NCBI GenBank assembly: GCA_963704995.1
Contig: CAVPIM010000018.1
Span: 238,484-302,483 of the forward strand
DNA length: 64,000 nucleotides
Source of the DNA: an uncultured Actinomycetes bacterium
GTDB lineage: Bacteria > Actinomycetota > Actinomycetes > Streptosporangiales > Streptosporangiaceae
Direction of reading: 5' to 3'
A program made the translations under genes and the position numbers. The notes beneath the pieces were generated by a model that made no database searches, was not told the origin of the DNA, and saw only the letters and a program-made list of their open reading frames with translations. Shown in pieces: positions 448 through 29,087 of this stretch; position 1 is the first letter of the stretch, and each line of letters begins with the position of its first letter.

Positions 448-1125
448 CTATCCGGTGGTGATGGACACCTCGTCAAGCTTGCCCTGGTACCAGTCCGATC
501 CCGGGTAGGCGCCGATTTCCAGGGCGGAGGTGTTGGTGATGGCCCCCACGTTGGCGGTCGTGGTCGCCACCACCGTGCCGTTGACCACGGTCTGGATCTG
601 CGTGCTCGTCTTTACGCACTGGATATGGTGCCATGCGCCATTGTTCAGGCCTGAGCCGCCGATAGCGTTGTGGTTGCTGGTCGTCCCCCGGAAGGTGCAC
701 TGGATCTGACCCGACTGCAGCAGTTCGATCTTGTACTCGGGAGCCGTGAACACTCCCTTGCGCACCAGGTCGAAATCACCGGACTTGGGCAGGGAGAGGG
801 TCCTCAGCCAGAAGGAGACAGTGATGTTAGCCGAACCTGGATTCAGCGAGGCGGAGTTGGGCACCTCCACGTAGGACTTCGTCTTGGACCCGCCGAAGGT
901 GTAGGACTTGCCGTACTTCCCAGCGGCCCCCAGCGTCACGTTGTGCAGGGTGCCGTTGTTACCTTGCCCCGATGCGTCGGCCATTGTCGTTCCCGACGTC
1001 TCGTCCATGTGCCACAAGGCAACCACCGCGGACGCCGATGCCACCCCACCCGGGAGCAACGCGCTACCAGCCATCACCGTTGACAAGACAGCGCCCCCTG
1101 CTACGAGGCGTGACAACCTCAACAT
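448..1125 (-). CDS. secreted LamG / concanavalin-A-like lectin-fold protein
   Basis: 225-aa ORF with an N-terminal signal peptide (MLRLSRLVAGGAVLSTVMAGSALL..ASA). The body, WHMDETSGTTMADASG..NGTL....FDLVRKG..YKIELL..WHHIQCV..WYQGKLDEVSI, is typical of Laminin_G_3-type domains. It is a paralog of the C-terminal domain of 23553-24704. Confidence 0.7.
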   Translation of the reverse strand: MLRLSRLVAGGAVLSTVMAGSALLPGGVASASAVVALWHMDETSGTTMADASGQGNNGTLHNVTLGAAGKYGKSYTFGGSKTKSYVEVPNSASLNPGSANITVSFWLRTLSLPKSGDFDLVRKGVFTAPEYKIELLQSGQIQCTFRGTTSNHNAIGGSGLNNGAWHHIQCVKTSTQIQTVVNGTVVATTTANVGAITNTSALEIGAYPGSDWYQGKLDEVSITTG

Positions 1126-1436
1126 GCAACCACCCTCCCTAGACTTGCGGCACTATGCCTGCTCCCCCACCGCCAGGCCATGAGCTCCCGGCGCTGAGGG
1201 TCCCGCATCGGGGATCCCCGCTCTGGAGGGGTAGGCCCGCTCTACGACCACGCGCCGCGGGCATGATCGCACGAGAGTGGCACAACGGCCTTTTGGGCGC
1301 AAGTTGAACACGGGAATACCACCTCAATACTCGCGTGACGGCTGGCCGCTGGTCAGCGGGGCGGGCGCCCTTTCCCCGCCGCGGGGAGCCAGGGCACGTG
1401 CCGTCACGCCCACATCCAGGAGGCCTGCCGACCTGC

Positions 1437-2880
1437 TCACTTCCTGCTGAATCGCCGGTAGGCGAGCAGCGCGCCGGCGATCACCACGGCGATAGCAGCG
1501 GCGATCGCGGCCCAGCTGAGCGCGGACGGGCCTGCGGCCGGTGCACTCAGGTGCGAGGTGTGACTGGGACTGGCGGACGGGGCTGGGCTTGGTGAGCTCG
1601 GGCTCGGGCTCGGGCTGGGACTGTGACTCGGTTTGGCCCGGTGGTGGGCGCGATGGTGGCAGGCCCCGGCCAGGCTGTCCAGATAGCAACTGTGCGCTAC
1701 GTCCCTGGCTGCCGCCAGCGCGGCGGCGCCGCTGTCTCCGGGGGCTGCCCCGGACGCGTCGTACCGCCAGTCGTAAGCGGTATCCGAGTCGAAGTACTCG
1801 ATGGCCTTGACGTTGGTGATGCTGTGCCGCAGCTCGCTCATGGCATCCGCCCACCAGGTCGCGCGGGTCGGTGCGCCACTTCCGTAGGCGCTGGCAGGCA
1901 AAATGCCCACTTCTCCAAACATGAGCGGCTTGCCGTATGCGCTGAATGTCTGATACCAGTTAAAGCCGCTGTTGCCACCACTGGTGGTGGCAAGCTGCTG
2001 GAGAGTCAGCCACTGGTTTTTCGGGTAGGCGTCAAGCCCAATCCAGTCGAACGTAAGCGCTGCCGGGATAATAGGGTACTGGATCCTGGGCCTGGTTCCC
2101 GCCAATACGTATTGGGTTCCACAGCCACTTGACATTCGCTACATGCTGGGCACGAAAGATATTGACAAAGTGGCGCCATGCGGCAATGAACACCGCAGGG
2201 TTGTTTCCGTAATGAATGTCGTTCCACTCACTTCCGGTGAAATTGAACTCCCAGAAGGGCCGGATCAAGATGTGCCCGTACGGGGAAAGCTGCGATTTTA
2301 CTGCAGCGGCGAAGCTGGCGATCTGGCTGTCATACTTGCCGGCGGCGATGCCAGGAATAATAGTGTTCGGGTTATTCCCGGTGGACCACGACAGAATGAC
2401 GAAGGGAACGTGGTCGGTCGCCAGAGACCAGTGGGGGCCGGCGAGATCGGTCCTACTCACGGACGTAGGAAGGTAATACATGTGGCCGTCGAACTTCCTG
2501 CCGAACTGGGCTTCGCGGCTGGCGAAGTCGCTGGGTGCGCTGGGTCTCGGGGCAGAGCGATCGAAAAAGTATGCCCCGGCGCCGTCTGGGGCCCAGGTGG
2601 CGGCGTTGATGGCAGGAGCCGTGCGCTCACGCGTTACAGCGGAGTGACCCCCCAGGCTGGTGCTGGCGAGGACAACCAGCAACCCCACCGCTAGTTGCCG
2701 ACGAGCAATCCGCACTCCGAAACCCCCCGCACGGTCCGGCGCTGAACGAGCGCGCGTAAAGAAAAGCCGGGCCGCCGGGCCTTCCTTAGCACGCCCTGGC
2801 GGCGGGCCCATACCGGTAGCCGCCTGCCCACCAGGTGCCGTCGGCGGCTGGCGCCGCAAGAGACTACCAGCCGAATTCAC
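1437..2880 (-). pseudogene. GH26-like glycoside hydrolase with Ser/Pro linker and C-terminal TM anchor, frameshifted near 2049
   Basis: ORFs 2032-2880 and 1437-2135 are two halves of one GH26-like domain: ..IRPFWEFNFTGSEW.. / ..YYPGSAYV|DWIGLDAYP..KPLMFGEVG.. The join needs removal of 1 nt at about 2049 (total length 1444, which is 1 mod 3). The tail is SPSPSPSPSSPSPAPSASPS followed by a hydrophobic helix and RRFSRK. The start is uncertain; GTG at 2715 gives a signal peptide. Confidence 0.65.
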
Positions 2881-3208: not shown

Positions 3209-4699
3209 ATGACTAGTGATGCAGCCCTTCAAAGGGTGAGTGATGACGCTGCCGCGCGGAGAGGACCGGCTCCCTGGGCCGTCAGCCGGGGCGAGGACCG
3301 GGACCGCTTCCGGTGGGCTCGGTCGTATCTCTGGGCCGCCGGTGCGGCTGACGCTAGTTGCGCTCTCGCCGCCGGGCTCATCGCTCTGGAAGCCCGGTTC
3401 GCCGGCTGGCCCAGCCGGCCCCGCGAGTACCTGCTCTTCACGGCGCTGATGCCGGCCATCTGGGTGGCGTCCGTGGCGCTAGCGGGGGGTTACGACGTGC
3501 GCTTCGTCGGCCTTGGCCCCGATGAGTTCCGTAAGGTGCTGAACGTTGGTGCGAGCCTCACCGCCGGGGTCGCCATCATCTCCTTCGTAACCAAGAGCGA
3601 CATAGCTCGCGGGTACATCGTCATTGCCCTGCCTTGCGCGACCGCGCTTGATCTCCTGGCCAGGTACGGCTTGCGTAAGGGTCTGCACAGGCGCAGACGC
3701 GGCGGGGCGTGCATGCGGCGGGTGATCGCCGTTGGCCATGCTGCGCGGGTGGCCGACCTGATCGGCGAGTTGCGCAGAGAAAAGCATCACGGCCTGTCAA
3801 TTGTGGGTGCGTGCCTGACCCAGGGAACCATGCTCACCCAGATAGCCGGTATCCCGGTGATCGGGGGCATGGATTCTGTCTCCGCTGCTATCGCCGAGCT
3901 GGACGCAGATACGGTGGCTGTCGCCGCCGACCGCGACCTGACCAGAACGCGGCTTCGCGAACTCGCCTGGGAACTCGAGGCCACCGAAACCGATCTTTAC
4001 GTGGCGCCGGCCTTGCTGGACGTGGCCGGGCCCCGCACGACTATCCGCCCGGTGGCGGGCCTGCCACTGCTGCATGTGGACCATCCCGAGTTTTCCGGGA
4101 CCCGCTGGGTTATCAAGGGGCTGTTCGACAAGCTGGCCGCGGGTGCTGCATTAATGATTGCCGCTCCGTTCCTGGTGGTGATCGCGTTCGTTATCGCACT
4201 GCGCGACGGCAGGCCCGTGCTGTTCCGGCAATCGCGCGTCGGCAAGGACGGGCGCACGTTCACTCTCTACAAGTTCCGGACCATGGTGGTGGACGCGGAG
4301 CAGCGGAAGGCGCAGCTCGCCGAGCACGACGAGGGGGCCGGTGCGCTGTTCAAAATGCGCAACGATCCCCGGGTTACGCATACCGGCAGGTGGCTTCGCC
4401 GGTACTCGCTGGATGAGCTGCCCCAGCTCTTCAACGTGCTAAAGGGCGACATGTCCCTCGTCGGCCCGCGGCCTCCCTTGCAGGATGAAGTCGAGCGCTA
4501 TACCGACTACGTGCGCCGCCGGCTGGCGGTAAAGCCGGGTCTCACCGGGCTTTGGCAGATCAGTGGGCGCTCGGATCTTTCCTGGGAAGAAGCGGTCCGG
4601 CTGGACCTGCGCTATGTGGAGAACTGGTCTCTCATACTCGATATGCAGATCCTGTGGAAGAGCTGCCCGGCGGTCTTTCACGGCTCCGGCGCCTACTAG
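3209..4699 (+). CDS. polyprenyl-phosphate glycosyl-1-phosphate transferase (WbaP/CpsE-type initiating sugar transferase)
   Basis: The C-terminal bacterial sugar transferase domain reads RPVLFRQSRVGKDGRTFTLYKFRTM...LFKMRNDPRVT..G..LRRYSLDELPQLFNVLKGDMSLVGPRP...KPGLTGLWQISGRS. ATG 3209 follows ggggaggggg. The track start at 3068 (GTG) is a less likely alternative. The length matches the paralog at 21180. Confidence 0.85.
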   Translation: MTSDAALQRVSDDAAARRGPAPWAVSRGEDRDRFRWARSYLWAAGAADASCALAAGLIALEARFAGWPSRPREYLLFTALMPAIWVASVALAGGYDVRFVGLGPDEFRKVLNVGASLTAGVAIISFVTKSDIARGYIVIALPCATALDLLARYGLRKGLHRRRRGGACMRRVIAVGHAARVADLIGELRREKHHGLSIVGACLTQGTMLTQIAGIPVIGGMDSVSAAIAELDADTVAVAADRDLTRTRLRELAWELEATETDLYVAPALLDVAGPRTTIRPVAGLPLLHVDHPEFSGTRWVIKGLFDKLAAGAALMIAAPFLVVIAFVIALRDGRPVLFRQSRVGKDGRTFTLYKFRTMVVDAEQRKAQLAEHDEGAGALFKMRNDPRVTHTGRWLRRYSLDELPQLFNVLKGDMSLVGPRPPLQDEVERYTDYVRRRLAVKPGLTGLWQISGRSDLSWEEAVRLDLRYVENWSLILDMQILWKSCPAVFHGSGAY

Positions 4700-4710: not shown

Positions 4711-5634
4711 ATGCTTCGCGAACCCCCTTCCTCGCTGAACGACGGCGTAAACCGTCCGGGCAGCCGGGCTTTGCTGGCGGGCCTGCCCTTCCATAGCTTC
4801 ACGGAAGAGCAGGTCGTGGAGCATATCGTCACAGCCAGCCGGGACGGCCGCGGCGGCTGGGTGGCCACCCCGAACGTCGACATCTGCCGGCAGACCCAGC
4901 ATGACGAAACGCTGCTGCGCCTGGTGTCCAGCGCCTCGCTGATCGTGCCCGATGGCATGCCGCTGATCTGGGCCGCAAGGCTGGTGCGTGACCCGTTGCC
5001 GGAGCGGGTAACCGGCGCATCGCTCATTTTTTCGCTGACCCAGGCTGCGGCCCGCCAGCAGCGCTCGATCTACCTGCTGGGCGGCGCGCCCGGAGTACCG
5101 GAGCGAGCCGGGGAGGAACTGCGGGGCCGCTACCCCGGCCTCGTGGTAGCCGGAACAGACGCTCCGCCTACCGGATTCGACGCCGACCCCCAGGCCGTCG
5201 CCGCAGTGCACGCCCGCCTGGAGGCGGCGGCGCCCGACATTGTCTACGTGGGGCTCGGATTCCCCAAGCAGGAACGCCTCATCGCGCGCCTGGCCCCGTC
5301 TTTCCCGGCCACCTGGTTCATTAGTTGTGGCGCAGCGATCCCGTTCGCGGCGAATGCGCTGCCACGGGCCCCGCAGTGGATGCAGTCCGCAGGTCTCGAA
5401 TGGACGTTCCGGCTCATCAGTGAGCCGCGCCGGCTGTACCGGCGGTATCTGCTCCAGGATCTGCCATTCGCAGTCAAGCTGCTGGCCGGATCCGCGATGG
5501 TACGGCTCCGGCCAGTCCGGGGGAGTCAGGCACATGGATCAAAGGAACCACAAATACCATCCGCTCCGGACGGAGAGCCTGGCCCCGGAAATGGGCAGGA
5601 GACCTCTCGCGGACGGATCGGCCGGGTCTTATGA
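4711..5634 (+). CDS. WecB/TagA/CpsF family glycosyltransferase (GT26)
   Basis: Motifs ..PDGMPLIWAARL.., LLGGAPGV.ERA, VGLGFPKQERLI, ..CGAAIPF.A...PRAPQWMQ..GLEWTFRL..EPRRL..RYL. ATG 4711 lies 12 nt after the upstream stop. The upstream part of track ORF 4552-5634 overlaps the preceding gene. Confidence 0.8.
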   Translation: MLREPPSSLNDGVNRPGSRALLAGLPFHSFTEEQVVEHIVTASRDGRGGWVATPNVDICRQTQHDETLLRLVSSASLIVPDGMPLIWAARLVRDPLPERVTGASLIFSLTQAAARQQRSIYLLGGAPGVPERAGEELRGRYPGLVVAGTDAPPTGFDADPQAVAAVHARLEAAAPDIVYVGLGFPKQERLIARLAPSFPATWFISCGAAIPFAANALPRAPQWMQSAGLEWTFRLISEPRRLYRRYLLQDLPFAVKLLAGSAMVRLRPVRGSQAHGSKEPQIPSAPDGEPGPGNGQETSRGRIGRVL

Positions 5635-5916: not shown

Positions 5917-7596
5917 ATGCAGCCGGAAGCAAGGCAACTCATGACTAACACGCAACCCACGATCGATCTGCATCAGTACTGGGACGTTTTCCGCTCCCGG
6001 AAACTTACAGTTATCATCCCTGTACTCGCAGTTATCGCGCTGGCGGCCGTGTATATTGTGATGCAGACGCCGCAATATACGGCACAGGCCAAGGTGCTCG
6101 TCAATCCATTGCTGAGCCCGGTCGCTGCGGGGACCACGGCCAAGTCGAATGCCCCGGACATGAATACCGAGCAGGCCACGGCAGCTTCCGCCCCTGTCGC
6201 GAATCTGGCCCGGATCTCGCTGAAGGCTTCAAATAGCGGGGATAGGCTGCTGAATCACCTAAGCGTTTCGGCGGCCAGTACCGGCAATGTTCTTCAATTC
6301 CAGTACACCTCAACTGACGCGCAGCAGGCCGCCCAGTATGCGAACGCGTTCGCCCAGGCTTACATCACCTACCGGAACGACAGCGTGCTGAAGCTTCTTA
6401 CCGCAGGCGTAGCGGAAAGAAAGCACACGATCGCGCTGCTGCAACAACAGCTCCAGCATTCTGGGACGGCGCAACGGGCGGTCCTGCTCTCCCAGCTTCG
6501 TGACGACGAGATCCAGCTGGCGACGTTCCAGAGCGATCAGTCACTGGTGGACGGGGGCCAGGTGATAGGGATCGCCGTGCCTCCCTCCGCGCCGTCCTCG
6601 CCCAAGATCGCCACCACCCTGATCATCGCCGCGGTGATCGGACTGCTCCTGGGCGTCATCCTGGCCCTGCTCAGGGAGGCCCAGGACCGCCGGATCAAGA
6701 GCCCGGGCGAGATGGAGAGCGCGCTTTACGCCCCTGTCCTGAGCGTCGTCCCCAAGTTCAAGGGGCGGTCCCCGGACGCGTCCCTGGTGGCGATCAGTGA
6801 GCCTCGCAGTCCCGCGAGCGAGGCCTACCAGATGGCGGCCATCGCCCTGGAAAACATGCTTCCCCACCCCGGCACGCGGATGGTGATGATCGTCTCGCCC
6901 AAGCCCGGTGGCGGGGCGTCAACCGCGACGGCGAACCTGGGCGCGATACTGGCCCAGGCCGGGCGTCAGGTCATCCTGGTCTCAGCCGACCTGCGGAACC
7001 CGACGCTGCACCTCATCCTCGGGCTTTCCAACGGGCGCGGGGTCTCTACGGCTGTGCGTGAGGGGAAGAGCGCCGAGCGACTGCTGAAAGCTACCCGCGT
7101 TCCCAACCTGTTCCTGCTGAACGCCGGCCCGGAGCCGGAAGATCCGGCGGCGCTCCTGTCCAGCCCGGAAACGGCGCAGGTCTTCCAGGATCTGCAGGCC
7201 CTGAAACCGCACTTCATCCTGGTGGACGCACCGGCCGCGCTCTCGGCGCCCGACGCGATGATCCTCTCCCGTTACGTCAACGGGACCGTTGTCACCTGGA
7301 ACTCCGAGGCCTTCCGGGCCCCCGATCTCCTCGCCGCGCGGCAGCGGCTGAGCAGGGCCGGCGCGAACATCCTGGGTGGGATCTACTCGTTCGCTTCGGG
7401 CAAGGCGAGGGAGCGCGCGAGTTCTCCCGGTGCGGAGCCGCCGCCGCCGCCCCGGGCCCCGGGCCCGCGCGAAACGCGCGCGACACCACTCAACGGCGTT
7501 GACGAGGATGCGCTTGACCCGGCCGACGCTGCGCTGCGGGAACGGTCGGCGGCCTGGTCGCCCCGGTACGGCGCGCAGGGAAGGGTGCAATCGTGA
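5917..7596 (+). CDS. polysaccharide co-polymerase (Wzz domain) fused to a degenerate BY-kinase-like P-loop domain
   Basis: The N-terminus has a Wzz-type TM plus periplasmic coiled region (IDLHQYWDVFRSRKLTVIIPVLAV..), then a second TM (IATTLIIAAVIGLLLGVILALL). The C-terminal CpsD/CapB-like domain has Walker A' (ILVSADLRNP) and Walker B (FILVDAPA). Walker A reads SPKPGGGAST, with Ala where the GK[ST] lysine is expected, and there is no C-terminal Tyr cluster. Confidence 0.75.
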   Translation: MQPEARQLMTNTQPTIDLHQYWDVFRSRKLTVIIPVLAVIALAAVYIVMQTPQYTAQAKVLVNPLLSPVAAGTTAKSNAPDMNTEQATAASAPVANLARISLKASNSGDRLLNHLSVSAASTGNVLQFQYTSTDAQQAAQYANAFAQAYITYRNDSVLKLLTAGVAERKHTIALLQQQLQHSGTAQRAVLLSQLRDDEIQLATFQSDQSLVDGGQVIGIAVPPSAPSSPKIATTLIIAAVIGLLLGVILALLREAQDRRIKSPGEMESALYAPVLSVVPKFKGRSPDASLVAISEPRSPASEAYQMAAIALENMLPHPGTRMVMIVSPKPGGGASTATANLGAILAQAGRQVILVSADLRNPTLHLILGLSNGRGVSTAVREGKSAERLLKATRVPNLFLLNAGPEPEDPAALLSSPETAQVFQDLQALKPHFILVDAPAALSAPDAMILSRYVNGTVVTWNSEAFRAPDLLAARQRLSRAGANILGGIYSFASGKARERASSPGAEPPPPPRAPGPRETRATPLNGVDEDALDPADAALRERSAAWSPRYGAQGRVQS

Positions 7597-11987: not shown

Positions 11988-12120
11988 CCTGGTGACCCGC
12001 CAGGTACCCGGCACGTCACAGTCGCGGCTTCCCGCGGCTGATGACGAGCGACAGCCCTCCCCACCCGGTCCCGAGGGGGAGCCGGAGCCGCCGCGGCGCC
12101 CTGGCCCCGACGCAATCTGG

Positions 12121-22923: not shown

Positions 22924-23538
22924 CTACTGGCTGAGCATGGACTGGAGCGTGCCGGGAATCGTGGAGTTATCGGCCACCATGCAGTTATGGTTGCTGCCGC
23001 CTACCGCCTGGGCCGCTGCCATACTGCTGGCCGCCGCCATTGTCTGCAGGCAGCTGATGTCGGCCGGGAAGTTGGCCGCGGTCATCGCGTTGATGCGGGT
23101 CCGCACGCTGGCTGGCCAGCGGATGCCCCGGAATTCGGCTACCTCGGCGCGTAGTTCGCTGGCATAGGCCAGGGCGTCGGCGCGGAACTCGCTGAAGGGC
23201 GCCGAACCGGTGGAGGCGCTCGCGAGCTTGTTGGACAGCGCGTTCCCCCGGCCCACGATTCGCACGTAGGCCAGTTGCGCCTGCTTCATCGTCAGTCGCC
23301 CGGTAGGCAGGGGACCGCCGGTGGGCGCTGCCGACGGGGAACTCGCCGTCCCGTGGGCCGACGGGGAACTCGCCGCCCCCCGGGCCGAGGGGGAACTCGC
23401 CGCCACCGATGCCCCGGACGCAGCGGACGCCGAGGACGCCGCCGGTGCACTAAGCGGCCCGGCGCCACATGCGGCGACGAGCACGGCCGCTGCTGCCGCC
23501 GCGGCCACGGCGGCGGTGTTCCTGGTGCTGCTGATCAT
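22924..23538 (-). CDS. putative lipoprotein with Ala/Ser-rich linker
   Basis: The signal peptide ends in a lipobox (AAVLVAAC-G). It is followed by the reiterated ASSPSA(R/H)G(A/T) linker and a roughly 130-aa globular C-terminal part with two Cys. It lies 14 nt downstream of 23553-24704 on the same strand. Confidence 0.55.
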   Translation of the reverse strand: MISSTRNTAAVAAAAAAAVLVAACGAGPLSAPAASSASAASGASVAASSPSARGAASSPSAHGTASSPSAAPTGGPLPTGRLTMKQAQLAYVRIVGRGNALSNKLASASTGSAPFSEFRADALAYASELRAEVAEFRGIRWPASVRTRINAMTAANFPADISCLQTMAAASSMAAAQAVGGSNHNCMVADNSTIPGTLQSMLSQ

Positions 23539-23552: not shown

Positions 23553-24704
23553 TCAGCCGAAGGAAATAGAGACGTCGTCCAGTTCGCCCTGGTACCAGTC
23601 GTAGCCAGTGGCGGAGCCAGGGTTGCCGTGGGCCCCCACGTTCACGTCAGAGGGCGGCGAGACGGACCCGATGACCGCGGACGTGCTGTGCACCAGCACG
23701 CCGTCGATCCACAGCTGGATGGCGGAAGCGGTCTTGATGCACTGCACATAGTGCCACTGCCCGTTGTTCAGGCTGGCCCCGCCAGTGGCGTTGTTACTGC
23801 TGGACGAGCCGTGGTAAGTACACGCGATCTGGTTCGACTTCAGCAGCTCGACCTTGTACTCCTGGGCGGGGTAGTCCCCCATGCGCACCAGGTCATAGTC
23901 ACCCGAGCTAGGCAGGTTCGTGGTGTTGAGCCAGAACGAGATGTCGATGTTGGCCGAGCCCGCGACCAGCGTGGACGAGTAAGGCACGTCAGCGTCGGAC
24001 TGCCCGCTGAAGCTGTAGGCGGTGCCATGGCCGGCAGGCCCGGGCACACCGACCTGGACAGGGCCGTTCAGCGTGCCGTTGTTGTGGTGGCCAGAGGAGT
24101 CGATCATGGTCGTCCCGGATGTCTCGTCCATGTTCCACTGCCCGGCGAGCGCAGGCGAGGACGACGCCCCGGTGAGCGACAGGCTGTCCGCCTCGAAGCT
24201 GTTGCCGGCCACCGCGCCAGTCTGGCGGATCTGGAAGCCCACCGTGTCGCCGGCGTTCTTGTCAGTCAGGGTCGCCGGGCCGATGGCCTGCCAGCTCCCA
24301 TTGGCCGTCACGCACTGCTTGACCGTCTGCGCCAGCGAGCCGCCCGGTGTGTACTCCTGCAAGAGCAGGCACAGGCTCTTTCCTGAGACGCCCAGCACTT
24401 CGCCGGTGCCCTGCAACTGGCTGCCCTGCGCCACGTTCGTGGCCGGCTTGGGGGCTGCGTAGATCGAGTAAGACGTGCCCGTGGACAACGTCACCTTGGC
24501 GGCAGAGCCACTGCCGCCAAAGCCGGGGCTGACCACGCTCAGCTTGGCGTTGGTGCCTTTCCACCCGGAGGTGGTTCCGCCGTCGAAAGTACCGTTGGGA
24601 AGCAGATTCGTGGCCGCAGCCACGGCCACGGCCGGGGTGAGAGCCATGGCTGTCCCCACCGAAAGCACAGCCGCGCCTGCCGCGCAGCGCATCAACCACG
24701 ACAC
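23553..24704 (-). CDS. secreted protein: carbohydrate-binding-module-like N-domain plus LamG lectin-fold C-domain
   Basis: Signal peptide present. The N-domain (NLLPNGTFDGGTTSGWKGTNAKL...) resembles the CBM_4_9 family. The C-domain QWNMDETSGTTMIDSSGHHNNGTL...YDLVRMG..YKVELL..WHYVQCI..WYQGELDDVSI is paralogous to 448-1125. Confidence 0.7.
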   Translation of the reverse strand: MSWLMRCAAGAAVLSVGTAMALTPAVAVAAATNLLPNGTFDGGTTSGWKGTNAKLSVVSPGFGGSGSAAKVTLSTGTSYSIYAAPKPATNVAQGSQLQGTGEVLGVSGKSLCLLLQEYTPGGSLAQTVKQCVTANGSWQAIGPATLTDKNAGDTVGFQIRQTGAVAGNSFEADSLSLTGASSSPALAGQWNMDETSGTTMIDSSGHHNNGTLNGPVQVGVPGPAGHGTAYSFSGQSDADVPYSSTLVAGSANIDISFWLNTTNLPSSGDYDLVRMGDYPAQEYKVELLKSNQIACTYHGSSSSNNATGGASLNNGQWHYVQCIKTASAIQLWIDGVLVHSTSAVIGSVSPPSDVNVGAHGNPGSATGYDWYQGELDDVSISFG

Positions 24705-25064: not shown

Positions 25065-25096
25065 TGAATGGCGACCTAACGGAAGGTTAACTATTC

Positions 25097-25849
25097 ATGT
25101 CTCGTTCGCCAGCGCCCGGTTACGCCCAGCGCCCTGCCGCGGCCGGCCGCGGAAAGCAGGCGCCAGCCCCGGGCGGGACACGGGAACCCCGGTACGGGCT
25201 GGCCAGGCTGCTCGTCGGTGTCGCGCTCAGCGTCCTGGTCCTGCTGCTCGGCCTACTGGCGAAGACAGGCCCGGTTTCCCGCCTTGACCTGCGCGTCGAC
25301 CGGCACATCGCCATGCAAGACCGCACCAGCATGCTGACCACGCTGGCTAGGGCCGTCAGCACAATCGCCACACCGGAGATCGTGGGTGTCGGCCTGATGA
25401 TCGTGATGCCGCTCGTCCTGGTGCTGGCCAGCCGCCGGCTCGATGCCCTGAAGGTGTTCTGCATGTTCGGCGGGGCACTGGTCCTGGCCGAGATCGGGAA
25501 GAAGGTCATCAACGAGCACCGGCCGCCGACGTCGCTGTGGGCCATGACCGCCGACAGCGGATCCTCCTACCCCAGCGGGCACACCACCACCGCGGCCGTG
25601 TTCGCGGTCGCGCTCGTCGTTATTGCCGCCACCCTGGCCGGCCGGAGTGCCGCCCTGGTGCTGGGCGGCATGTACGTGGTCGCCGTCGCCGTCAGCCGTG
25701 TCTACCTGGCCGACCACTACCCACCTGACGTGATCGGCGGCCTGCTGTGCGCCCTGGCCGCGGCGTTCATCGTCACCGGCCTCGCTGCCCTGCCCGCCGT
25801 GCAACCGTACCTGCAGCGACTCGGCACGGGCAGCGGCCGCCACCGGTAG
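25097..25849 (+). CDS. PAP2-family (type 2 phosphatidic acid / undecaprenyl-diphosphate) phosphatase
   Basis: All three acid-phosphatase motifs are present: KKVINEHRPP (KxxxxxxRP), YPSGHT (PSGH) and SRVYLADHYPPD (SRxxxxxHxxxD). There are several TM segments. Confidence 0.85.
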   Translation: MSRSPAPGYAQRPAAAGRGKQAPAPGGTREPRYGLARLLVGVALSVLVLLLGLLAKTGPVSRLDLRVDRHIAMQDRTSMLTTLARAVSTIATPEIVGVGLMIVMPLVLVLASRRLDALKVFCMFGGALVLAEIGKKVINEHRPPTSLWAMTADSGSSYPSGHTTTAAVFAVALVVIAATLAGRSAALVLGGMYVVAVAVSRVYLADHYPPDVIGGLLCALAAAFIVTGLAALPAVQPYLQRLGTGSGRHR

Positions 25850-26036: not shown

Positions 26037-26798
26037 ATGATGACCACCGACGACAGCCGCCTGGCTCGTGACCTGGCGGCCGCCGCGGGCCAGCGCCTAC
26101 TCGGCCTGCGGGCCGAGGGGGGCGATCCGGCGGAGCTACGCTCGGCGGGGGACCGGAGTTCACACGAGTTCCTCACCGCGGAACTGGGCCGGCTTCGCCC
26201 GGCCGACGCGGTGCTGTCTGAGGAAGGCAAGGACGACCACGCGCGGCTGGCCGCCGACCGGGTATGGATCATCGACCCGCTGGATGGCACCAGGGAATTC
26301 GGCGAGGCTGGCCGGGACGACTGGGCGGTGCACGTCGCGCTGTGGGAGCGGGGTGAACTGGCCGCGGGCGCCGTCGCGCTGCCCGCCCAGGACGCCGTGC
26401 TGAGCACGGCGCAGCCGCAGCCCAGGCCGCCTGCCCCGCCGGCGGGGCCGCTGCGCGTGCTGGTCAGCCGGACCAGGCCCCCCGCGCTGCTGGCCCGGCT
26501 GGCTGAGCAGGTCGAGCTCACGCTGATCCCGATGGGCTCGGCCGGGGCGAAGGCGGCCGAGGTGATCCGCGGGACCGCCGATGCCTACGTGCACAGCGGC
26601 GGCCAGTACGAGTGGGATTCGGCGGCCCCGGTCGCGGTGGCCCAGGCGGCGGGGCTGCACGCGTCGCGGCTGGACGGGTCAAAGCTGGCCTACAACCAGG
26701 CGGATCCTTCCCTGCCCGATATCCTTATCTGCTCAGCGGGGCTTGCCCCCGTGCTGCTGGATGGTCTGCGCGTGGCTGGTTGTTCAGCTACGCAGTAA
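26037..26798 (+). CDS. cysQ: 3'(2'),5'-bisphosphate nucleotidase (PAP phosphatase)
   Basis: Inositol-monophosphatase-fold motifs are present: DRSSHEFL, LSEE, WIIDPLDGTREF, WAVHVAL and WDSAAPVAV. It lies directly upstream of cysDN. Confidence 0.8.
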   Translation: MMTTDDSRLARDLAAAAGQRLLGLRAEGGDPAELRSAGDRSSHEFLTAELGRLRPADAVLSEEGKDDHARLAADRVWIIDPLDGTREFGEAGRDDWAVHVALWERGELAAGAVALPAQDAVLSTAQPQPRPPAPPAGPLRVLVSRTRPPALLARLAEQVELTLIPMGSAGAKAAEVIRGTADAYVHSGGQYEWDSAAPVAVAQAAGLHASRLDGSKLAYNQADPSLPDILICSAGLAPVLLDGLRVAGCSATQ

Positions 26799-26856
26799 CG
26801 CTCTCCCCGGGGAGAGTGACCTATCCCGTCCATGCCCGACGACCGGAGTCTGCTTG

Positions 26857-27777
26857 ATGGCCGTGCCACGTTCTGACTATTCGCTCTCGCAACTAGAAGT
26901 GCTCGAGGCGGAGTCCATCCACATCATGCGTGAGGTAGCCGCCGAATTCGAGCGGCCGGTCCTGCTGTTCTCGGGCGGTAAGGATTCCATCGTCATGCTG
27001 GCCCTCGCCGAGCGGGCGTTCTGGCCGGCCAGGGTCCCGTTCCCGGTCATGCACGTGGACACGGGGCACAATTTCCCCGAGGTGATCGATTACCGGGACC
27101 GCCGGGTCGCCGACGCCGGGGTACAGCTGGTCGTGGCGTCCGTCCAGGACTCCATCGACGCCGGCCGGGTGGCTGAGGAGACCGGCCGCCGGGCCAGCCG
27201 GAACCGGCTGCAGACGACCACGCTGCTGGATGCCATCGAGGAAAACCGCTTCGACGCGGTGTTCGGCGGCGGCCGCCGGGACGAGGAAAAGGCCCGGGCC
27301 AAGGAGCGGGTGTTCTCGTTCCGGGACGAGTTCGGCCAGTGGGATCCGAAGAACCAGCGTCCGGAGCTGTGGAGCATCTACAACACGCGGATCCGGATGG
27401 GCGAGCATATCCGGGTGTTTCCCCTGTCCAACTGGACCGAGCTGGATGTCTGGCAGTACATCGCCCGGGAGAAGCTGGAGATCCCGTCCATCTACTACGC
27501 CCACCAGCGGCGGGTGTTCGAGCGGGACGGCATCCTGCTCGCCGAGAACGAATTCACCCCCCGGGGCGACGACGAGCCGGTCTTCGAGACCACCGTGCGC
27601 TACCGCACGGTGGGCGACATGACCTGCACCGGCGCGGTGGAATCGACCGCGACGACCGTGGCCGACGTGATCGCCGAGGTGGCGGCCACCCGGGTCACCG
27701 AGCGCGGCCAGACACGCGCGGACGACAGGGCCAGCGAGGCAGCTATGGAAGACCGCAAGCGGGAGGGTTACTTTTAA
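26857..27777 (+). CDS. cysD: sulfate adenylyltransferase subunit 2
   Basis: PAPS-reductase-fold PP-loop FSGGKDS, then HVDTGHNFPE, RRDEEKARAKERVFSFRD..GQWDPKNQRPELW, PLSNWTELDVWQYI and the C-terminal MEDRKREGYF. ATG 26857; the track ORF starts further upstream at 26581. Confidence 0.95.
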   Translation: MAVPRSDYSLSQLEVLEAESIHIMREVAAEFERPVLLFSGGKDSIVMLALAERAFWPARVPFPVMHVDTGHNFPEVIDYRDRRVADAGVQLVVASVQDSIDAGRVAEETGRRASRNRLQTTTLLDAIEENRFDAVFGGGRRDEEKARAKERVFSFRDEFGQWDPKNQRPELWSIYNTRIRMGEHIRVFPLSNWTELDVWQYIAREKLEIPSIYYAHQRRVFERDGILLAENEFTPRGDDEPVFETTVRYRTVGDMTCTGAVESTATTVADVIAEVAATRVTERGQTRADDRASEAAMEDRKREGYF

Positions 27778-29087
27778 TGACGGCCACGGCGCACGACGTC
27801 CTGTCCCCGGAAGGGAGCAGGCCGATGGACATCCTGCGGCTGGCCACGGCGGGCTCGGTCAACGACGGCAAGAGCACCCTGATCGGGCGCCTGCTGTTCG
27901 ACTCGAAAGCCATCTTCGAGGACCAGCTCGCGGCGGTCGAGCAGACCAGCAAGGCCCGCGGCGAGGAGTACACGAACCTGGCCCTGCTCACCGACGGCCT
28001 GCGCGCGGAGCGGGAGCAGGGCATCACGATCGACGTGGCCTACCGCTATTTCGCCACGCCGCGCCGGAAGTTCATCATTGCCGACACCCCGGGGCACATC
28101 CAGTACACCCGCAACATGGTGACCGGCGCCTCCACCGCCGACCTGGCCATCGTGCTGGTGGACGCGCGCAACGGGCTGACCGAGCAGAGCCGGCGGCACG
28201 CGTTCCTCACCACCCTGCTCCGGGTGCCCCACCTGGTGCTCGCGGTGAACAAGATGGACCTGGTCGATTACGACCAGCGTGTCTTCGAGCGGATCAGCGA
28301 GGAGTTCGCGGCGTTCGCGGCCAAGCTGGAGATCGGCGACCTGAGCTTCATCCCCATCTCCGCCCTGCACGGGGACAACGTGGTGACCCGGTCGGAGAAG
28401 ATGCCGTGGCACGACGGGCCCTCGCTGCTGCACCACCTGGAGCACGTGCACATCGCCTCGGACCGCAACCTGATCGATGTGCGCTTCCCGGTCCAGTACG
28501 TGATCCGGCCGCACCAGGCCACCGACCCCGCGCTGCACGACTACCGCGGGTACGCCGGCCAGGTCGCGGGCGGGGTGCTCAAGCCCGGTGACGAGGTGAT
28601 GCACCTGCCATCCGGGCTGACCACGAAGATCTCGCGGATCGACACCGCGCGCGGCCCGGTCCCGGAGGCCTACTCGCCGATGTCGGTGACCCTGGTGCTC
28701 GAGGACGATCTGGACATCTCCCGCGGCGACATGATCTGCCGCCCGCACAACCAGCCGATGGTCTCCCAGGACGTGGAGGGCATGGTCTGCTGGATGTCGG
28801 AGAGCAAGCAGCTGGGGGCGCGGGACCGGCTGGTGGTCAAGCACACCTCCCGCACCGTGAAGGCCATCGTCCGTGACCTGCAGTACCGGCTCGACGTGAA
28901 CACCCTGCACCGGGACGAGAACGCGGAGCGGCTCGGGCTGAACGAGGTGGGCCGGGTGAGCCTGCGGCTGACCCAGCCGCTGTTCTTCGACCCGTACACC
29001 CGCAACCGGCAGACCGGGGGGCTTATCCTCATCGACGAGTCCACCAACGCCACAGTCGGGTCGGTCATGATCACTGAAGGGCACTGA
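27777..29087 (+). CDS. cysN: sulfate adenylyltransferase subunit 1 (GTPase), no fused APS-kinase domain
   Basis: G1 GSVNDGKSTL, G3 DTPGH and G4 NKMD. The TAATG overlap with cysD is at 27775-27779. The protein ends after the EF-Tu-like beta-barrel domains (about 436 aa), so no CysC module is attached. Confidence 0.95.
   Translation: MTATAHDVLSPEGSRPMDILRLATAGSVNDGKSTLIGRLLFDSKAIFEDQLAAVEQTSKARGEEYTNLALLTDGLRAEREQGITIDVAYRYFATPRRKFIIADTPGHIQYTRNMVTGASTADLAIVLVDARNGLTEQSRRHAFLTTLLRVPHLVLAVNKMDLVDYDQRVFERISEEFAAFAAKLEIGDLSFIPISALHGDNVVTRSEKMPWHDGPSLLHHLEHVHIASDRNLIDVRFPVQYVIRPHQATDPALHDYRGYAGQVAGGVLKPGDEVMHLPSGLTTKISRIDTARGPVPEAYSPMSVTLVLEDDLDISRGDMICRPHNQPMVSQDVEGMVCWMSESKQLGARDRLVVKHTSRTVKAIVRDLQYRLDVNTLHRDENAERLGLNEVGRVSLRLTQPLFFDPYTRNRQTGGLILIDESTNATVGSVMITEGH

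What the first reader, a model, noticed from the sequence alone, without database searches (positions are those of the whole stretch)
448..29087. Wzx/Wzy exopolysaccharide locus with two coupled sulfotransferases beside cysQ-cysDN: candidate sulfated EPS pathway in an actinomycete
From about 0.4 to 25.9 kb nearly every gene with an assignable function is polysaccharide-related: two WbaP-type initiators, GT26, GT2, a PCP/BY-kinase-like protein, Wzy, Wzx, three GH26-like hydrolases, two LamG-fold secreted proteins and PAP2. Two paralogous sulfotransferases are embedded in the core operon and linked by start/stop overlaps (GTGA 7593, ATGA 8699, ATGA 9688). Both carry PAPS-binding motifs (GRSGST 5'-PSB; HLVRDxRxVAWSW 3'-PB). 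Immediately after the locus come cysQ, which removes the sulfotransferase by-product PAP, and cysDN, which activates sulfate. Together this predicts an O-sulfated secreted or capsular heteropolysaccharide. From memory (not a search), sulfated bacterial glycans are known mainly from cyanobacteria, rhizobia and mycobacterial sulfolipids. I know of no characterised Wzx/Wzy sulfated EPS in Actinomycetota.
Basis: partly seen in the sequence, partly recalled or inferred. Interest (0 to 1): 0.75.

Follow-up and report, generated by a model that had tools for sequence, protein, structure and literature searches.

The report
Actinomycete polysaccharide locus with two sulfotransferases
This is a gene cluster from an uncultured soil actinomycete that very probably builds a sulfate-decorated surface or secreted polysaccharide. 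It is a sound candidate, but the same cluster design occurs in cultured actinomycetes and was proposed in print for Actinoplanes in 2026, so it is a new member rather than a new kind.

Summary
Window 0.4-25.9 kb is a Wzx/Wzy polysaccharide locus. Its tightly packed core operon contains two paralogous PAPS-type sulfotransferases (7593-8702 and 8699-9691), and cysQ-cysD-cysN follow at 26037-29087.

Comparative genomics supports the link between sulfate activation and the sulfotransferases:
- Nonomuraea, Streptosporangium and Planobispora carry one operon, WbaP-cysQ-cysD-cysN-ST-GT2-GT26, next to Wzz-Wzy-Wzx. Nonomuraea also has an APS kinase 11 kb away.
- A related MAG has cysDN on the other flank of the cluster.
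- Sinorhizobium meliloti pSymB has nodP2Q2-cysQ beside a homologous sulfotransferase.

The prediction of a sulfated heteropolysaccharide is therefore well founded, but three caveats apply:
- No APS kinase (cysC) lies in the 64 kb window, and CysN lacks the kinase domain, so the PAPS source is unproven here.
- No close homolog has a known acceptor.
- Novelty is limited. Synechan (2021) is a proven Wzx/Wzy sulfated EPS. Marine Vibrio and Cobetia have sulfated capsules with solved structures. The Actinoplanes missouriensis wps-1 cluster (June 2026) has the same component set and the same proposal, still without chemical proof.

Verdict: a real feature, a new member of a known kind, of moderate interest.

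The parts
1..173 (+). 3' end of an NDP-sugar epimerase/dehydratase gene, cut by the window edge; probably the left-most visible gene of the locus
   Evidence: Gene call and Pfam families (Epimerase, GDP_Man_Dehyd, RmlD_sub_bind) on the near-identical contig L008. L008 266-512 matches window 1-247 at 100%.
448..1125 (-). Secreted LamG-fold protein (LamG1)
   Evidence: Laminin_G_3, E 1.4e-20. Signal-peptide-like N-terminus. 86-89% identical in L001/L002.
1437..2481 (-). Third GH26-like glycosidase with a C-terminal membrane anchor; frameshifted in the window by one extra A at about 2050
   Evidence: L008 has an intact 347-aa gene with a weak GH26 hit. tblastn splits it over two frames in the window, and a single-base gap is seen. 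29-34% identical to the other two GH26-like genes.
3209..4699 (+). WbaP-type polyprenyl-phosphate sugar-1-phosphate transferase (initiator 1)
   Evidence: Bac_transf 1.6e-69 plus CoA_binding_3. The start follows the L008 gene call.
4711..5634 (+). GT26 (WecG/TagA/CpsF) glycosyltransferase; probably adds the second sugar
   Evidence: Glyco_tran_WecG 2.8e-54. 54% identical to the GT26 of the Streptosporangiaceae clusters.
5917..7596 (+). Polysaccharide co-polymerase with a degenerate BY-kinase domain (pseudokinase)
   Evidence: Wzz, GNVR, eps_fam TIGR01007 6e-26. Walker A reads PGGGAST with no Lys, and there is no C-terminal Tyr cluster. The same loss is seen in L001-L004, whereas distant loci keep GEGKTT.
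7593..8702 (+). Sulfotransferase ST1 (the core starts at about 7758; the N-terminal 55 aa are low-complexity, so the true start is uncertain)
   Evidence: Sulfotransfer_3 7.5e-14. PSB and 3'-PB motifs present. AF2 pLDDT 91, with best fold matches to PAP-bound TPST1/2 and the OLS/CurM sulfotransferases. GTGA overlap with the PCP stop.
8699..9691 (+). Sulfotransferase ST2, a paralog of ST1
   Evidence: Sulfotransfer_3 1.1e-8. 43% identical to ST1. ATGA overlaps at both ends.
9688..10611 (+). GT2 glycosyltransferase
   Evidence: Glycos_transf_2 1.7e-24. Always follows the ST pair in related loci.
10614..11987 (+). Wzy-type polymerase
   Evidence: Wzy_C 2.2e-9. 457-aa gene call on L008/L009.
11992..13309 (+). 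GC-rich 33-nt tandem repeat (about 29 copies) encoding RQPDPAGY(D/G)QP repeats. It is probably a disordered N-terminal extension of Wzx, with the frame broken several times in this assembly.
   Evidence: TRF. Three-frame translations show the same peptide resuming after each frame switch. In L001-L004 the spacer is one open frame continuous with Wzx.
13310..14929 (+). Wzx flippase core
   Evidence: Polysacc_synt 1e-9 and MatE 1.3e-9. 71-85% identical in L001-L004.
14873..16162 (-). APH/choline-kinase-like kinase (HGDWAPWN catalytic loop); same architecture as WpsI of A. missouriensis
   Evidence: APH 1.3e-6 at residues 196-334. Sequence. Homologs in L006, L011, L019-L021. WpsI kinase-like domain spans 175-329 (PMC13390465).
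16206..17561 (-). Fusion of an NTP_transf_5 nucleotidyltransferase and a thymidylate-kinase-fold domain. It is a rare accessory of Wzx/Wzy clusters of unknown role, and not an APS kinase.
   Evidence: Pfam. Only 69 homologs in 5.8 billion proteins. It also occurs in clusters without sulfotransferases. AF2 pLDDT 86; the top 50 fold hits are all thymidylate or deoxynucleoside kinases.
17766..18779 (-). GH26-like glycosidase a, membrane-anchored or secreted
   Evidence: Glyco_hydro_26 E 1.2e-3. 35-38% identical to strong GH26 genes in L011. Hydrophobic N-terminus.
18825..20237 (-). CAP domain plus GH26-like glycosidase b
   Evidence: CAP 1.5e-5 and Glyco_hydro_26 2.4e-4.
20309..20848 (-). DUF6918 protein
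   Evidence: PF21893 1.9e-48.
21180..22640 (+). WbaP-type initiator 2; ortholog of the WbaP that heads the cysQ-cysDN-ST operon in Streptosporangiaceae
   Evidence: Bac_transf 1.5e-68. 57% identical to L019/L020/L021 WbaP.
22924..23538 (-). Small Ser/Ala-rich lipoprotein-like protein, unknown function
   Evidence: No Pfam hit. Lipobox-like LVAAC. 52% homolog next to CBM-LamG in L003.
23553..24704 (-). Secreted CBM4_9 plus LamG-fold protein (LamG2)
   Evidence: Laminin_G_3 4.9e-12 and a weak CBM_4_9 hit. 49% identical to LamG1.
25097..25849 (+). PAP2-family membrane phosphatase (possible undecaprenyl-diphosphate recycling; inferred)
   Evidence: PAP2 3.4e-15.
26037..26798 (+). CysQ, 3'-phosphoadenosine-5'-phosphate (PAP) phosphatase
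   Evidence: Inositol_P 4e-31. Best NCBIfam match is bisphos_cysQ. E 4.6e-74 to M. tuberculosis CysQ 5DJF. 61-63% identical to the in-operon cysQ of L019-L021.
26857..27777 (+). CysD, ATP sulfurylase small subunit
   Evidence: CysD NF003587 6.9e-142. ATG at 26857 is in frame.
27777..29087 (+). CysN, ATP sulfurylase GTPase subunit, without a fused APS kinase domain
   Evidence: TIGR02034 2.4e-165. It matches only positions 21-432 of the 632-position bifunctional CysNC model. One-base TAATG overlap with cysD.

Best explanation
The locus encodes a Wzx/Wzy-dependent heteropolysaccharide of a monoderm actinomycete, and its repeat unit is O-sulfated.

Proposed mechanism:
1. A WbaP-type transferase (either of two paralogs) primes undecaprenyl phosphate.
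2. GT26 and GT2 extend this to a short repeat unit, probably three sugars.
3. The cytoplasmic paralogs ST1 and ST2 each transfer sulfate from PAPS to a different hydroxyl of the lipid-linked unit.
4. Wzx flips the unit, Wzy polymerises it, and a PCP with a dead kinase domain sets chain length.
5. Outside the cell, three GH26-like glycosidases and two LamG/CBM proteins trim or bind the polymer.
6. CysD and CysN make APS, and CysQ removes the sulfotransferase by-product PAP.
7. An APS kinase encoded elsewhere in the genome must convert APS to PAPS.

Shown: gene identities, fold and motifs, translational coupling, and conserved linkage of cysQDN with the sulfotransferases.

Inferred: the acceptor, the timing of sulfation, the number of sugars and sulfates, and whether the polymer is free, capsular, wall-linked or a developmental matrix.
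For: - Gene identities rest on Pfam and NCBIfam scans.
- Spacing from the PCP to Wzx is 4 nt or less.
- ST1 and ST2 keep an invariant 5'-PSB loop (G-x-G-R-S-G-S-T), the 3'-PB motif (H-L-x-R-D-x-R-x-V-x-x-S) and a Glu at the position that aligns (HMMER alignment) with a Glu of the OLS sulfotransferase domain 4gox. That this Glu is the catalytic base in the OLS/CurM sulfotransferases is from memory.
- The ST1 model (pLDDT 91) matches PAP-bound sulfotransferase structures.
- Neither sulfotransferase has a signal peptide or transmembrane segment, whereas the LamG and GH26 proteins do.
- Homologs are fused to, or overlap, Alg13/Alg14-type glycosyltransferases and always sit in the order ST-ST-GT2-Wzy-Wzx.
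- cysQ-cysD-cysN lie in one operon with WbaP, ST, GT2 and GT26 in Nonomuraea gerenzanensis, Streptosporangium album and Planobispora rosea. Window proteins are 57-82% identical for WbaP and cysQDN, and 37-54% for ST, GT2 and GT26.
- Nonomuraea also has a PUA_2-APS_kinase gene in the cluster.
- cysDN flank the cluster in MAG L004 in a different arrangement.
- S. meliloti pSymB places nodP2-nodQ2-cysQ next to a 36% identical sulfotransferase within a Wzx/Wzy cluster. That cluster is co-regulated and predicted to make a sulfated polysaccharide (PMC5498481).
- In A. missouriensis, deleting wpsH, or the adjacent sulfate-adenylyltransferase/APS-kinase-family gene, severely distorts sporangia, as deleting the whole wps-1 cluster does. 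Deleting wpsB leaves sporangium shape normal but cuts spore release about tenfold (PMC13390465).
- Sulfotransferases plus PAPS genes in a polysaccharide cluster accompany sulfated polymers that have been verified chemically in Synechocystis (PMC8205485) and structurally in Vibrio (PMC11641403).
Against: - There is no canonical APS kinase in the 64 kb window, nor in the +/-10 kb fetched around the four closest MAG loci. This was tested by tblastn with E. coli CysC, whose sequence was validated at 100% identity.
- CysN lacks the kinase domain, unlike NodQ2.
- cysD and cysN have core-genome codon composition (GC3 0.89 and 0.96) rather than that of the polysaccharide genes (0.77-0.83). They could therefore be the organism's only, housekeeping, copy.
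- CysQ also has housekeeping roles, because PAP also arises from phosphopantetheinyl transfer (established knowledge).
- No characterised enzyme is close. The nearest solved structures are 16-19% identical and act on peptides or polyketide intermediates. XssE of synechan is only a remote relative and XssA is not detectable.
- No actinomycete polysaccharide has yet been shown chemically to carry sulfate.
Confidence: 0.65

Rival explanations
1. The locus makes an ordinary, non-sulfated polysaccharide in this organism. cysQ-cysDN are simply the housekeeping sulfate-assimilation genes, feeding an APS reductase, that happen to border the cluster. Without an APS kinase the sulfotransferases are idle, or are relics of an ancestral sulfating cluster.
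For: No cysC lies in the window or in the fetched flanks of the closest relatives, and CysN has no kinase domain. cysD and cysN have core-like GC3. A 187-nt gap and two minus-strand genes separate cysQ from the polysaccharide genes.
Against: Both sulfotransferases keep all PAPS-binding residues. They are conserved at 74-87% identity across four MAG species with intact frames and translational coupling, which argues for purifying selection. cysQ-cysDN is physically tied to the orthologous sulfotransferase in three cultured genera, in L004, and in S. meliloti. In Nonomuraea the kinase lies 11 kb from the sulfotransferase, so absence within the stretches examined is weak evidence.
Confidence: 0.15
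2. The sulfotransferases act on something other than the polysaccharide repeat unit. Candidates are tyrosines of a protein (for instance the DPAGYDQP repeats encoded between Wzy and Wzx), a glycolipid, or a small molecule.
For: The best structural matches of ST1 are tyrosylprotein sulfotransferases (TM 0.55-0.58), followed by polyketide-pathway sulfotransferases. About 29 Tyr-containing acidic repeats lie 2.3 kb downstream in the same operon.
Against: The repeat spacer is lineage-specific, and its Tyr is absent from the equivalent spacers of L001-L004. More distant loci with the same ST pair have no spacer at all. The family is fused or coupled to Alg13/14 glycosyltransferases and is always embedded among GT, Wzy and Wzx genes. 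At 16-19% identity, fold similarity does not indicate the acceptor.
Confidence: 0.07
3. The product is sulfated but is not a free exopolysaccharide. It could be a cell-wall-linked glycopolymer or a developmental (spore or sporangium) matrix polysaccharide, as proposed for wps-1 in Actinoplanes.
For: GT26/TagA-type enzymes typically build wall-polymer linkage units (established knowledge). The orthologous cluster is conserved in sporangium-forming genera: Streptosporangium, Planobispora and Planomonospora. wps-1 mutants have distorted sporangia (PMC13390465).
Against: No LCP-family ligase was found among the locus genes scanned. The window's organism is uncultured, so its morphology is unknown. 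This rival concerns where the polymer ends up, not the chemistry.
Confidence: 0.13

Closest known systems
Actinoplanes missouriensis wps-1 cluster (AMIS_7280-7380, WpsA-K) with adjacent AMIS_7390 (Tezuka and Ohnishi 2026, PMC13390465)
   Same: Same class of organism and the same component list: GT2, GT26, GH26, Wzx, Wzy, Wzz/PCP, a kinase-like protein of matching architecture, two sulfotransferases, and a sulfate-activation gene next door. The hypothesis (a sulfated Wzx/Wzy polysaccharide) is the same, and it is likewise chemically unverified.
   Different: The two wps-1 sulfotransferases belong to different families and are not adjacent; here they are tandem paralogs. wps-1 has a methyltransferase and DUF4262 and lists no WbaP initiator. 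Here there are two WbaP genes, three GH26-like genes, LamG/CBM proteins and an NTP_transf_5-TMK fusion. AMIS_7390 is described as of the sulfate adenylyltransferase/APS kinase family, whereas the window's CysN has no kinase domain. Direct sequence orthology to AMIS genes could not be tested, because the sequences were not retrievable.
Streptosporangiaceae operon WbaP-cysQ-cysD-cysN-ST-GT2-GT26 with divergent Wzz-Wzy-kinase-like-ST-Wzx-ST (Nonomuraea gerenzanensis, Streptosporangium album, Planobispora rosea; annotated only, unstudied)
   Same: Sequence-level orthology: WbaP 57%, CysQ 61-63%, CysD 67-82%, CysN 69-71%, GT26 54%, GT2 40-46%, ST 37-41%, Wzx and Wzy 29%, plus GH26 and the kinase-like gene.
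   Different: In those genomes cysQDN are inside the operon, directly between the initiator and the sulfotransferase, and Nonomuraea adds cysC and a methyltransferase. They have one ST of this subfamily plus two of other subfamilies. In the window, cysQDN sit at the edge, cysC is missing and the ST is duplicated in tandem.
Synechan (xss) cluster of Synechocystis sp. PCC 6803, plasmid pSYSM (Maeda et al. 2021, PMC8205485)
   Same: This is the only Wzx/Wzy system with two sulfotransferases for which a sulfated EPS was shown by composition analysis (sugars to sulfate). It also contains a PGT, GT26, GT2, Wzx, Wzy and PCP.
   Different: It is in a diderm cyanobacterium and uses eight glycosyltransferases and an OPX. 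No cysDN/cysQ was annotated in the stretch of pSYSM examined. XssA shows no detectable similarity to ST1. XssE is only remotely similar (23-27% over motif regions, pairwise E 1e-3 to 3e-7).
Sinorhizobium meliloti pSymB nodP2-smb21248 polysaccharide cluster (PMC5498481)
   Same: It has a sulfotransferase 36% identical to ST1 over 97% of its length, inside a Wzx/Wzy-type cluster flanked by cysD(nodP2)-nodQ2-cysQ. It is predicted to make a sulfated surface polysaccharide.
   Different: It is in a proteobacterium and is about 30 kb with 13 glycosyltransferases. NodQ2 carries the APS kinase domain. The product is still unidentified.
Sulfated capsular polysaccharides of Vibrio sp. KMM 8419 and Cobetia marina KMM 1449 (PMC11641403, PMC11766843)
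   Same: For Vibrio, the structure is solved and the cluster holds sulfotransferases plus extra cysNDC copies. The authors call this combination a hallmark of sulfated polysaccharide synthesis. The Cobetia paper was seen only by title and abstract.
   Different: The Vibrio capsule uses an ABC-transporter (Kps) pathway in Gammaproteobacteria, and cysC is present in its cluster.

Membership tests
Wzx/Wzy-dependent polysaccharide assembly locus | Polyprenyl-phosphate sugar-phosphate transferase (initiator) | tested here: met
   Two Bac_transf proteins, E 1.6e-69 and 1.5e-68.
Wzx/Wzy-dependent polysaccharide assembly locus | Wzx flippase, Wzy polymerase and polysaccharide co-polymerase | tested here: met
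   Polysacc_synt/MatE for Wzx, Wzy_C for Wzy, and Wzz+GNVR+eps_fam for the PCP. All are above or near the Pfam cutoffs and conserved in synteny.
PAPS-dependent sulfotransferase (Pfam Sulfotransfer_3, PF13469) | Profile match above the curated cutoff | tested here: met
   ST1 scores 52.9 bits and ST2 36.0 bits against a 27-bit cutoff.
PAPS-dependent sulfotransferase (Pfam Sulfotransfer_3, PF13469) | 5'-phosphosulfate-binding loop and 3'-phosphate-binding motif | tested here: met
   GxGRSGST and HLxRDxRxVxxS are present in both proteins and invariant in 32 homologs.
PAPS-dependent sulfotransferase (Pfam Sulfotransfer_3, PF13469) | Sulfotransferase fold | tested here: met
   AF2 model with pLDDT 91. 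Foldseek probability 1.00 to TPST1/2, OLS/CurM ST, Stf9 and HS 3-OST, several of them solved with PAP bound.
PAPS-dependent sulfotransferase (Pfam Sulfotransfer_3, PF13469) | Sulfuryl transfer from PAPS to a defined acceptor | not testable with these tools
   This needs an enzyme assay. No close characterised homolog exists.
Sulfated-polysaccharide biosynthetic cluster (sulfotransferases plus PAPS supply within a polysaccharide cluster) | Sulfotransferase genes embedded among GT, Wzx and Wzy genes | tested here: met
   ST1 and ST2 lie between the PCP and GT2 with start/stop overlaps.
Sulfated-polysaccharide biosynthetic cluster (sulfotransferases plus PAPS supply within a polysaccharide cluster) | ATP sulfurylase (cysDN) and PAP phosphatase (cysQ) linked to the cluster | tested here: met
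   They lie at 26037-29087. The linkage recurs in L004, L019-L021 and pSymB.
Sulfated-polysaccharide biosynthetic cluster (sulfotransferases plus PAPS supply within a polysaccharide cluster) | APS kinase (cysC or a CysN-CysC fusion) to make PAPS | tested here: not met
   There is no hit in the 64 kb window beyond a P-loop match (E 0.011). CysN covers only positions 21-432 of the 632-position CysNC model. The rest of the genome is not available, so absence from the organism is not shown.
Sulfated-polysaccharide biosynthetic cluster (sulfotransferases plus PAPS supply within a polysaccharide cluster) | Ester sulfate demonstrated in the polymer | not testable with these tools
   This requires chemistry on purified polymer.
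Actinomycete wps-1-type cluster (A. missouriensis) | Component set: GT2, GT26, GH26, Wzx, Wzy, Wzz, kinase-like protein, two sulfotransferases, neighbouring sulfate-activation gene | tested here: met
   Domain content of the window compared with the published list.
Actinomycete wps-1-type cluster (A. missouriensis) | Sequence orthology to WpsA-K | not tested
   AMIS sequences could not be retrieved and were not among the top 120 hits. Orthology to the similar Streptosporangiaceae clusters was shown instead.
Actinomycete wps-1-type cluster (A. missouriensis) | Methyltransferase (WpsF) and DUF4262 (WpsD) | tested here: not met
   Neither was found among the locus genes. wpsD is dispensable in A. 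missouriensis.
Bacterial tyrosine (BY) autokinase | Walker A GxxxxGK[ST] and a C-terminal tyrosine cluster | tested here: not met
   The motif reads PGGGAST with Ala in place of Lys, and the tail holds a single Tyr. The same loss occurs in L001-L004, while L006, L007 and L013 keep GEGKTT or DGKTT.

The most novel reading that the evidence does not exclude
The ST-ST-GT2-Wzy-Wzx module with its Cys-motif sulfotransferase subfamily (C-x-C-G...C-x-F-W) may mark a widespread class of short-repeat, doubly sulfated heteropolysaccharides that has never been seen chemically. It would occur in soil Actinomycetota, both in uncultured lineages and in sporangium-forming genera where it may form the spore matrix. 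Proof would extend bacterial sulfated polysaccharides well beyond cyanobacteria and marine proteobacteria. It would also supply a large new set of carbohydrate sulfotransferases.
Probability: 0.5. Interest if true: 0.6.

Novelty: new member of a known kind. Interest (0 to 1): 0.4.

Why it matters
Sulfated polysaccharides are valued biomaterials. Apart from the sulfated lipopolysaccharides and capsules of rhizobia (cited in PMC5498481), the bacterial examples with demonstrated sulfation that I found are cyanobacterial, plus a few marine Gammaproteobacteria. This locus, and the many orthologous clusters found here in cultured Nonomuraea, Streptosporangium and Planobispora, suggest that soil actinomycetes commonly make such polymers. 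The cultured strains give a direct experimental route to test this. The finding also points to a large uncharacterised sulfotransferase subfamily: thousands of homologs, some fused to Alg13-type glycosyltransferases. It is not a first, because the same idea was published for Actinoplanes missouriensis in June 2026.

Tried and rejected
1. The NTP_transf_5/thymidylate-kinase-like protein (16206-17561) as a substitute APS kinase: rejected. Its only similarity to CysC is the P-loop. The family also sits in Wzx/Wzy clusters that have no sulfotransferase. All of the top 50 fold matches are thymidylate or deoxynucleoside kinases.
2. Codon composition as a way to tie cysQDN to the polysaccharide island: not supportive. 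GC3 rises gradually from 0.77-0.83 (core) to 0.86 (cysQ), 0.89 (cysD) and 0.96 (cysN), against 0.90-0.95 downstream.
3. Tyrosine sulfation of the DPAGYDQP repeats, prompted by the TPST-like fold: judged unlikely. Tyr is not conserved in the equivalent spacers, and the ST pair is far more widespread than the repeat.
4. NCBIfam gave no family for either sulfotransferase, the kinase-like protein, DUF6918 or GH26a. The PDB sequence search gave only remote hits.
5. Looking for cysC in the Nonomuraea chromosome by searching the plasmid collection with E. coli CysC: the record was not in the listed rows. The gene was then found directly in the fetched locus.
6. An exact-sequence look-up of LamG1, meant to extend the window leftwards, found nothing.
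7. An Rfam scan of the whole window found no RNA family. A promoter/terminator scan of 20.2-29.6 kb gave no promoter-like sites and six terminator-like sites (against about two expected from shuffles), which I did not interpret.
8. ARAGORN called a tRNA-Arg(CCT) at 29531-29600 on the minus strand, inside the S9 peptidase ORF. Rfam did not support it, so I treat it as a false positive.

Full report
**Observation**

The window has high G+C, with a lower-GC stretch from about 0.4 to 26 kb. I chose genes by third-position GC and scanned them against Pfam and NCBIfam. The plus-strand core is:
- WbaP-type initiator, 3209-4699
- GT26, 4711-5634
- polysaccharide co-polymerase, 5917-7596
- sulfotransferase ST1, 7593-8702
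- sulfotransferase ST2, 8699-9691
- GT2, 9688-10611
- Wzy, 10614-11987
- a repeat region followed by Wzx, ending at 14929

The quoted overlaps (GTGA at 7593, ATGA at 8699 and 9688) are present. From the PCP to Wzx, no gap exceeds 4 nt.

On the minus strand follow an APH-like kinase, an NTP_transf_5/thymidylate-kinase-like fusion, two GH26-like proteins (one with a CAP domain) and DUF6918. Then come a second WbaP (62% identical to the first), a small lipoprotein-like gene, a CBM-LamG protein and PAP2. After these lie cysQ (26037-26798), cysD (26857-27777) and cysN (27777-29087).

An epimerase/dehydratase gene is cut by the left edge of the window, so the locus probably starts outside it. To the right of cysN lie an S9 peptidase, a ubiE/menG-type methyltransferase and a geranylgeranyl-reductase-like flavoprotein with core-genome composition.

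**The sulfotransferases**

Both proteins exceed the Pfam Sulfotransfer_3 cutoff and are 43% identical paralogs. In an alignment of 32 homologs, several features are invariant:
- the 5'-phosphosulfate loop GxGRSGST
- the 3'-phosphate motif HLxRDxRxVxxS
- a Glu that aligns with a Glu of the OLS sulfotransferase domain 4gox. That this is the catalytic base in the OLS/CurM enzymes is my recollection, not a tool result.
- a Cys motif, C-x-C-G...C-x-F-W

The AlphaFold model of ST1 is confident (pLDDT 91). Foldseek places it among PAPS-dependent sulfotransferases. The best matches are the tyrosylprotein sulfotransferases (TM 0.55-0.58), followed by the OLS/CurM domains, Stf9, HS 3-OST and Stf0.

All of these are at or below 19% identity. 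NCBIfam has no model for the family, so the acceptor cannot be inferred from characterised relatives. Neither enzyme has a signal peptide or membrane segment, unlike the LamG and GH26 proteins. Sulfation should therefore occur in the cytoplasm, where PAPS is made (the last step is inference).

**Source and close relatives**

The GT2 protein is found exactly on an ENA contig that is 98.9% identical to the window. The closest genome loci are four MAGs titled "uncultured Actinomycetes bacterium" (MFD bins). They are 70-87% identical at the protein level and share the full order WbaP, GT26, PCP, ST1, ST2, GT2, Wzy, Wzx, kinase-like, NTP5/TMK and GH26.

More distant actinobacterial MAGs keep the module ST-ST-GT2-Wzy-Wzx. 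They often carry a third sulfotransferase and GH26 genes, and have an Alg14/Alg13 pair in place of GT26. There the first sulfotransferase overlaps Alg13 or is fused to it. This coupling to a cytoplasmic-face glycosyltransferase is the best available argument that the acceptor is the lipid-linked repeat unit.

**Linkage to sulfate activation**

- A tblastn search of the plasmid collection turned up the chromosome of Nonomuraea gerenzanensis. There the genes run WbaP, cysQ, cysD, cysN, ST, GT2, GT26 on one strand. Wzx, an APH-like gene, Wzy, Wzz, GH26, a PUA_2-APS_kinase gene and a methyltransferase follow.
- Streptosporangium album and Planobispora rosea have the same operon at the same chromosomal site, after glmU-prs-rplY-pth. 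Two further sulfotransferases flank their Wzx.
- Identities to the window proteins are WbaP 57%, CysQ 61-63%, CysD 67-82%, CysN 69-71%, GT26 54%, GT2 40-46% and ST 37-41%.
- In MAG L004, cysDN border the cluster on the opposite side.
- In S. meliloti pSymB, a 36% identical sulfotransferase lies in a Wzx/Wzy-type cluster bordered by nodP2-nodQ2-cysQ. The literature predicts a sulfated surface polysaccharide from that cluster (PMC5498481).

The association of cysQ-cysDN with this sulfotransferase family is therefore recurrent across phyla and arrangements.

**The gap: APS kinase**

CysN matches only the first 432 of 632 positions of the bifunctional CysNC model. I ran tblastn with E. coli CysC. 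I had typed that sequence from memory, and it was then confirmed 100% identical to E. coli records. It finds nothing in the window except a P-loop, and nothing in the fetched flanks of the close relatives.

The P-loop hit belongs to the NTP_transf_5/TMK-like protein, which I tested as a possible surrogate and rejected:
- It is a rare family, with 69 homologs.
- It also occurs in Wzx/Wzy clusters without sulfotransferases.
- Its model matches only thymidylate or deoxynucleoside kinases.

PAPS formation therefore depends on a gene outside the window, which cannot be checked here. In Nonomuraea the kinase lies 11 kb from the sulfotransferase, so its absence from the stretches examined is weak evidence. 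Codon composition does not tie cysDN to the island. They may be the organism's only copy, serving assimilation as well.

**Comparison with known systems**

- Synechan (xss) of Synechocystis is the proven Wzx/Wzy sulfated EPS with two sulfotransferases (PMC8205485). I fetched the cluster. XssA shows no detectable similarity to ST1, and XssE is only remotely similar. The window works like xss but is not orthologous to it.
- Vibrio sp. KMM 8419 has a capsule with a solved sulfated structure, and its cluster contains sulfotransferases and extra cysNDC copies (PMC11641403). A paper on a sulfated capsule of Cobetia marina KMM 1449 (PMC11766843) turned up in the search, but I read only its title and abstract.
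- The closest published case is the A. missouriensis wps-1 cluster (PMC13390465, June 2026). It has GT2, ST, GT26, DUF4262, GH26, a methyltransferase, Wzx, ST, a kinase-like protein, Wzy and Wzz. The adjacent AMIS_7390 is a sulfate-adenylyltransferase/APS-kinase-family gene.
- Deleting wpsH or AMIS_7390 severely disrupts sporangium formation. Deleting wpsB leaves sporangium shape normal but lowers spore release about tenfold.
- The authors propose a sulfated polysaccharide and state that it awaits verification.
- I found no open-access report of a chemically verified sulfated polysaccharide in Actinomycetota.

**Verdict**

I put about 0.65 on a sulfated Wzx/Wzy glycan being the product. The main rivals are:
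- a non-sulfated product for lack of PAPS (0.15)
- a sulfated product with a different cellular destination, wall-linked or a developmental matrix (0.13)
- a non-glycan acceptor (0.07)

It is a new member of a known kind. What distinguishes it is the tandem paralogous sulfotransferases of a large uncharacterised subfamily, the missing kinase, a dead BY-kinase domain and a repeat-extended Wzx. Interest is moderate (0.4). The cultured Streptosporangiaceae identified here make the hypothesis directly testable.

Noticed in passing
window 11992-13310: About 29 copies of a 33-nt, 78% GC tandem repeat lie between Wzy and Wzx, encoding RQPDPAGY(D/G)QP units. The coding reading switches frame at least five times, both here and in the 98.9% identical contig. 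In four related MAGs the equivalent spacer (660-900 nt, with different Pro/Arg/Gly-rich repeats and no Tyr) is one open frame continuous with Wzx. Wzx therefore probably carries a long disordered N-terminal repeat extension in this lineage, and the frame breaks may be assembly errors.
   Followed up: partly
window about 2050 (gene 1437-2481, minus strand): One extra A (GTCGAACG here, GTCGACG in the near-identical contig L008) frameshifts the third GH26-like gene. This is either a sequencing error or a recent pseudogene.
   Followed up: yes
window 5917-7596: The co-polymerase's BY-kinase domain has PGGGAST in place of the Walker A GK[ST] and has no C-terminal tyrosine cluster. The same loss is fixed in four related MAGs, while more distant loci keep GEGKTT. 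This is a lineage-specific pseudokinase PCP.
   Followed up: yes
window 16206-17561 (minus strand): A fusion of an NTP_transf_5 nucleotidyltransferase with a thymidylate-kinase-fold domain. Only 69 homologs were found in 5.8 billion proteins, all from metagenomes or actinobacterial MAGs. Most of the examined contexts are Wzx/Wzy polysaccharide clusters, sometimes next to an APH-like kinase. Its function is unknown.
   Followed up: partly
L011 9636-10945, L013 10001-11512, and many hits: In many homologs the sulfotransferase is fused to, or overlaps, an Alg13-like (Glyco_tran_28_C) domain that follows an Alg14-like gene. I did not come across this sulfotransferase-glycosyltransferase fusion in the papers read for this report.
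   Followed up: partly
L019 9096-17536, L020 3384-12740, L021 3831-12758: In Nonomuraea, Streptosporangium and Planobispora the sulfotransferase cluster sits at the same chromosomal position, directly after glmU-(prs)-rplY-pth. The family is present across Streptosporangiaceae, including the sporangium-forming genera.
   Followed up: partly
window 14873-16162 (minus strand): The APH-like protein keeps the HGDxxxxN catalytic loop (HGDWAPWN) and a following WDWE. It is therefore probably an active kinase and could add phosphate to the glycan or to a sugar precursor. Its architecture matches WpsI, whose deletion distorts sporangia in A. missouriensis.
   Followed up: no
window 29531-29600 (minus strand): ARAGORN calls a tRNA-Arg(CCT) inside the S9 peptidase ORF on the opposite strand. 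Rfam finds no tRNA there, so it is probably a false positive.
   Followed up: partly
window 33.7-50 kb and beyond: By eye, the translations look like a complete nuoA-N NADH dehydrogenase operon. It is followed by a polyprenyl synthase, a branched-chain amino-acid ABC transporter, and ParA-like, ArsR-like and S41 peptidase genes. These were not scanned against profile libraries.
   Followed up: no
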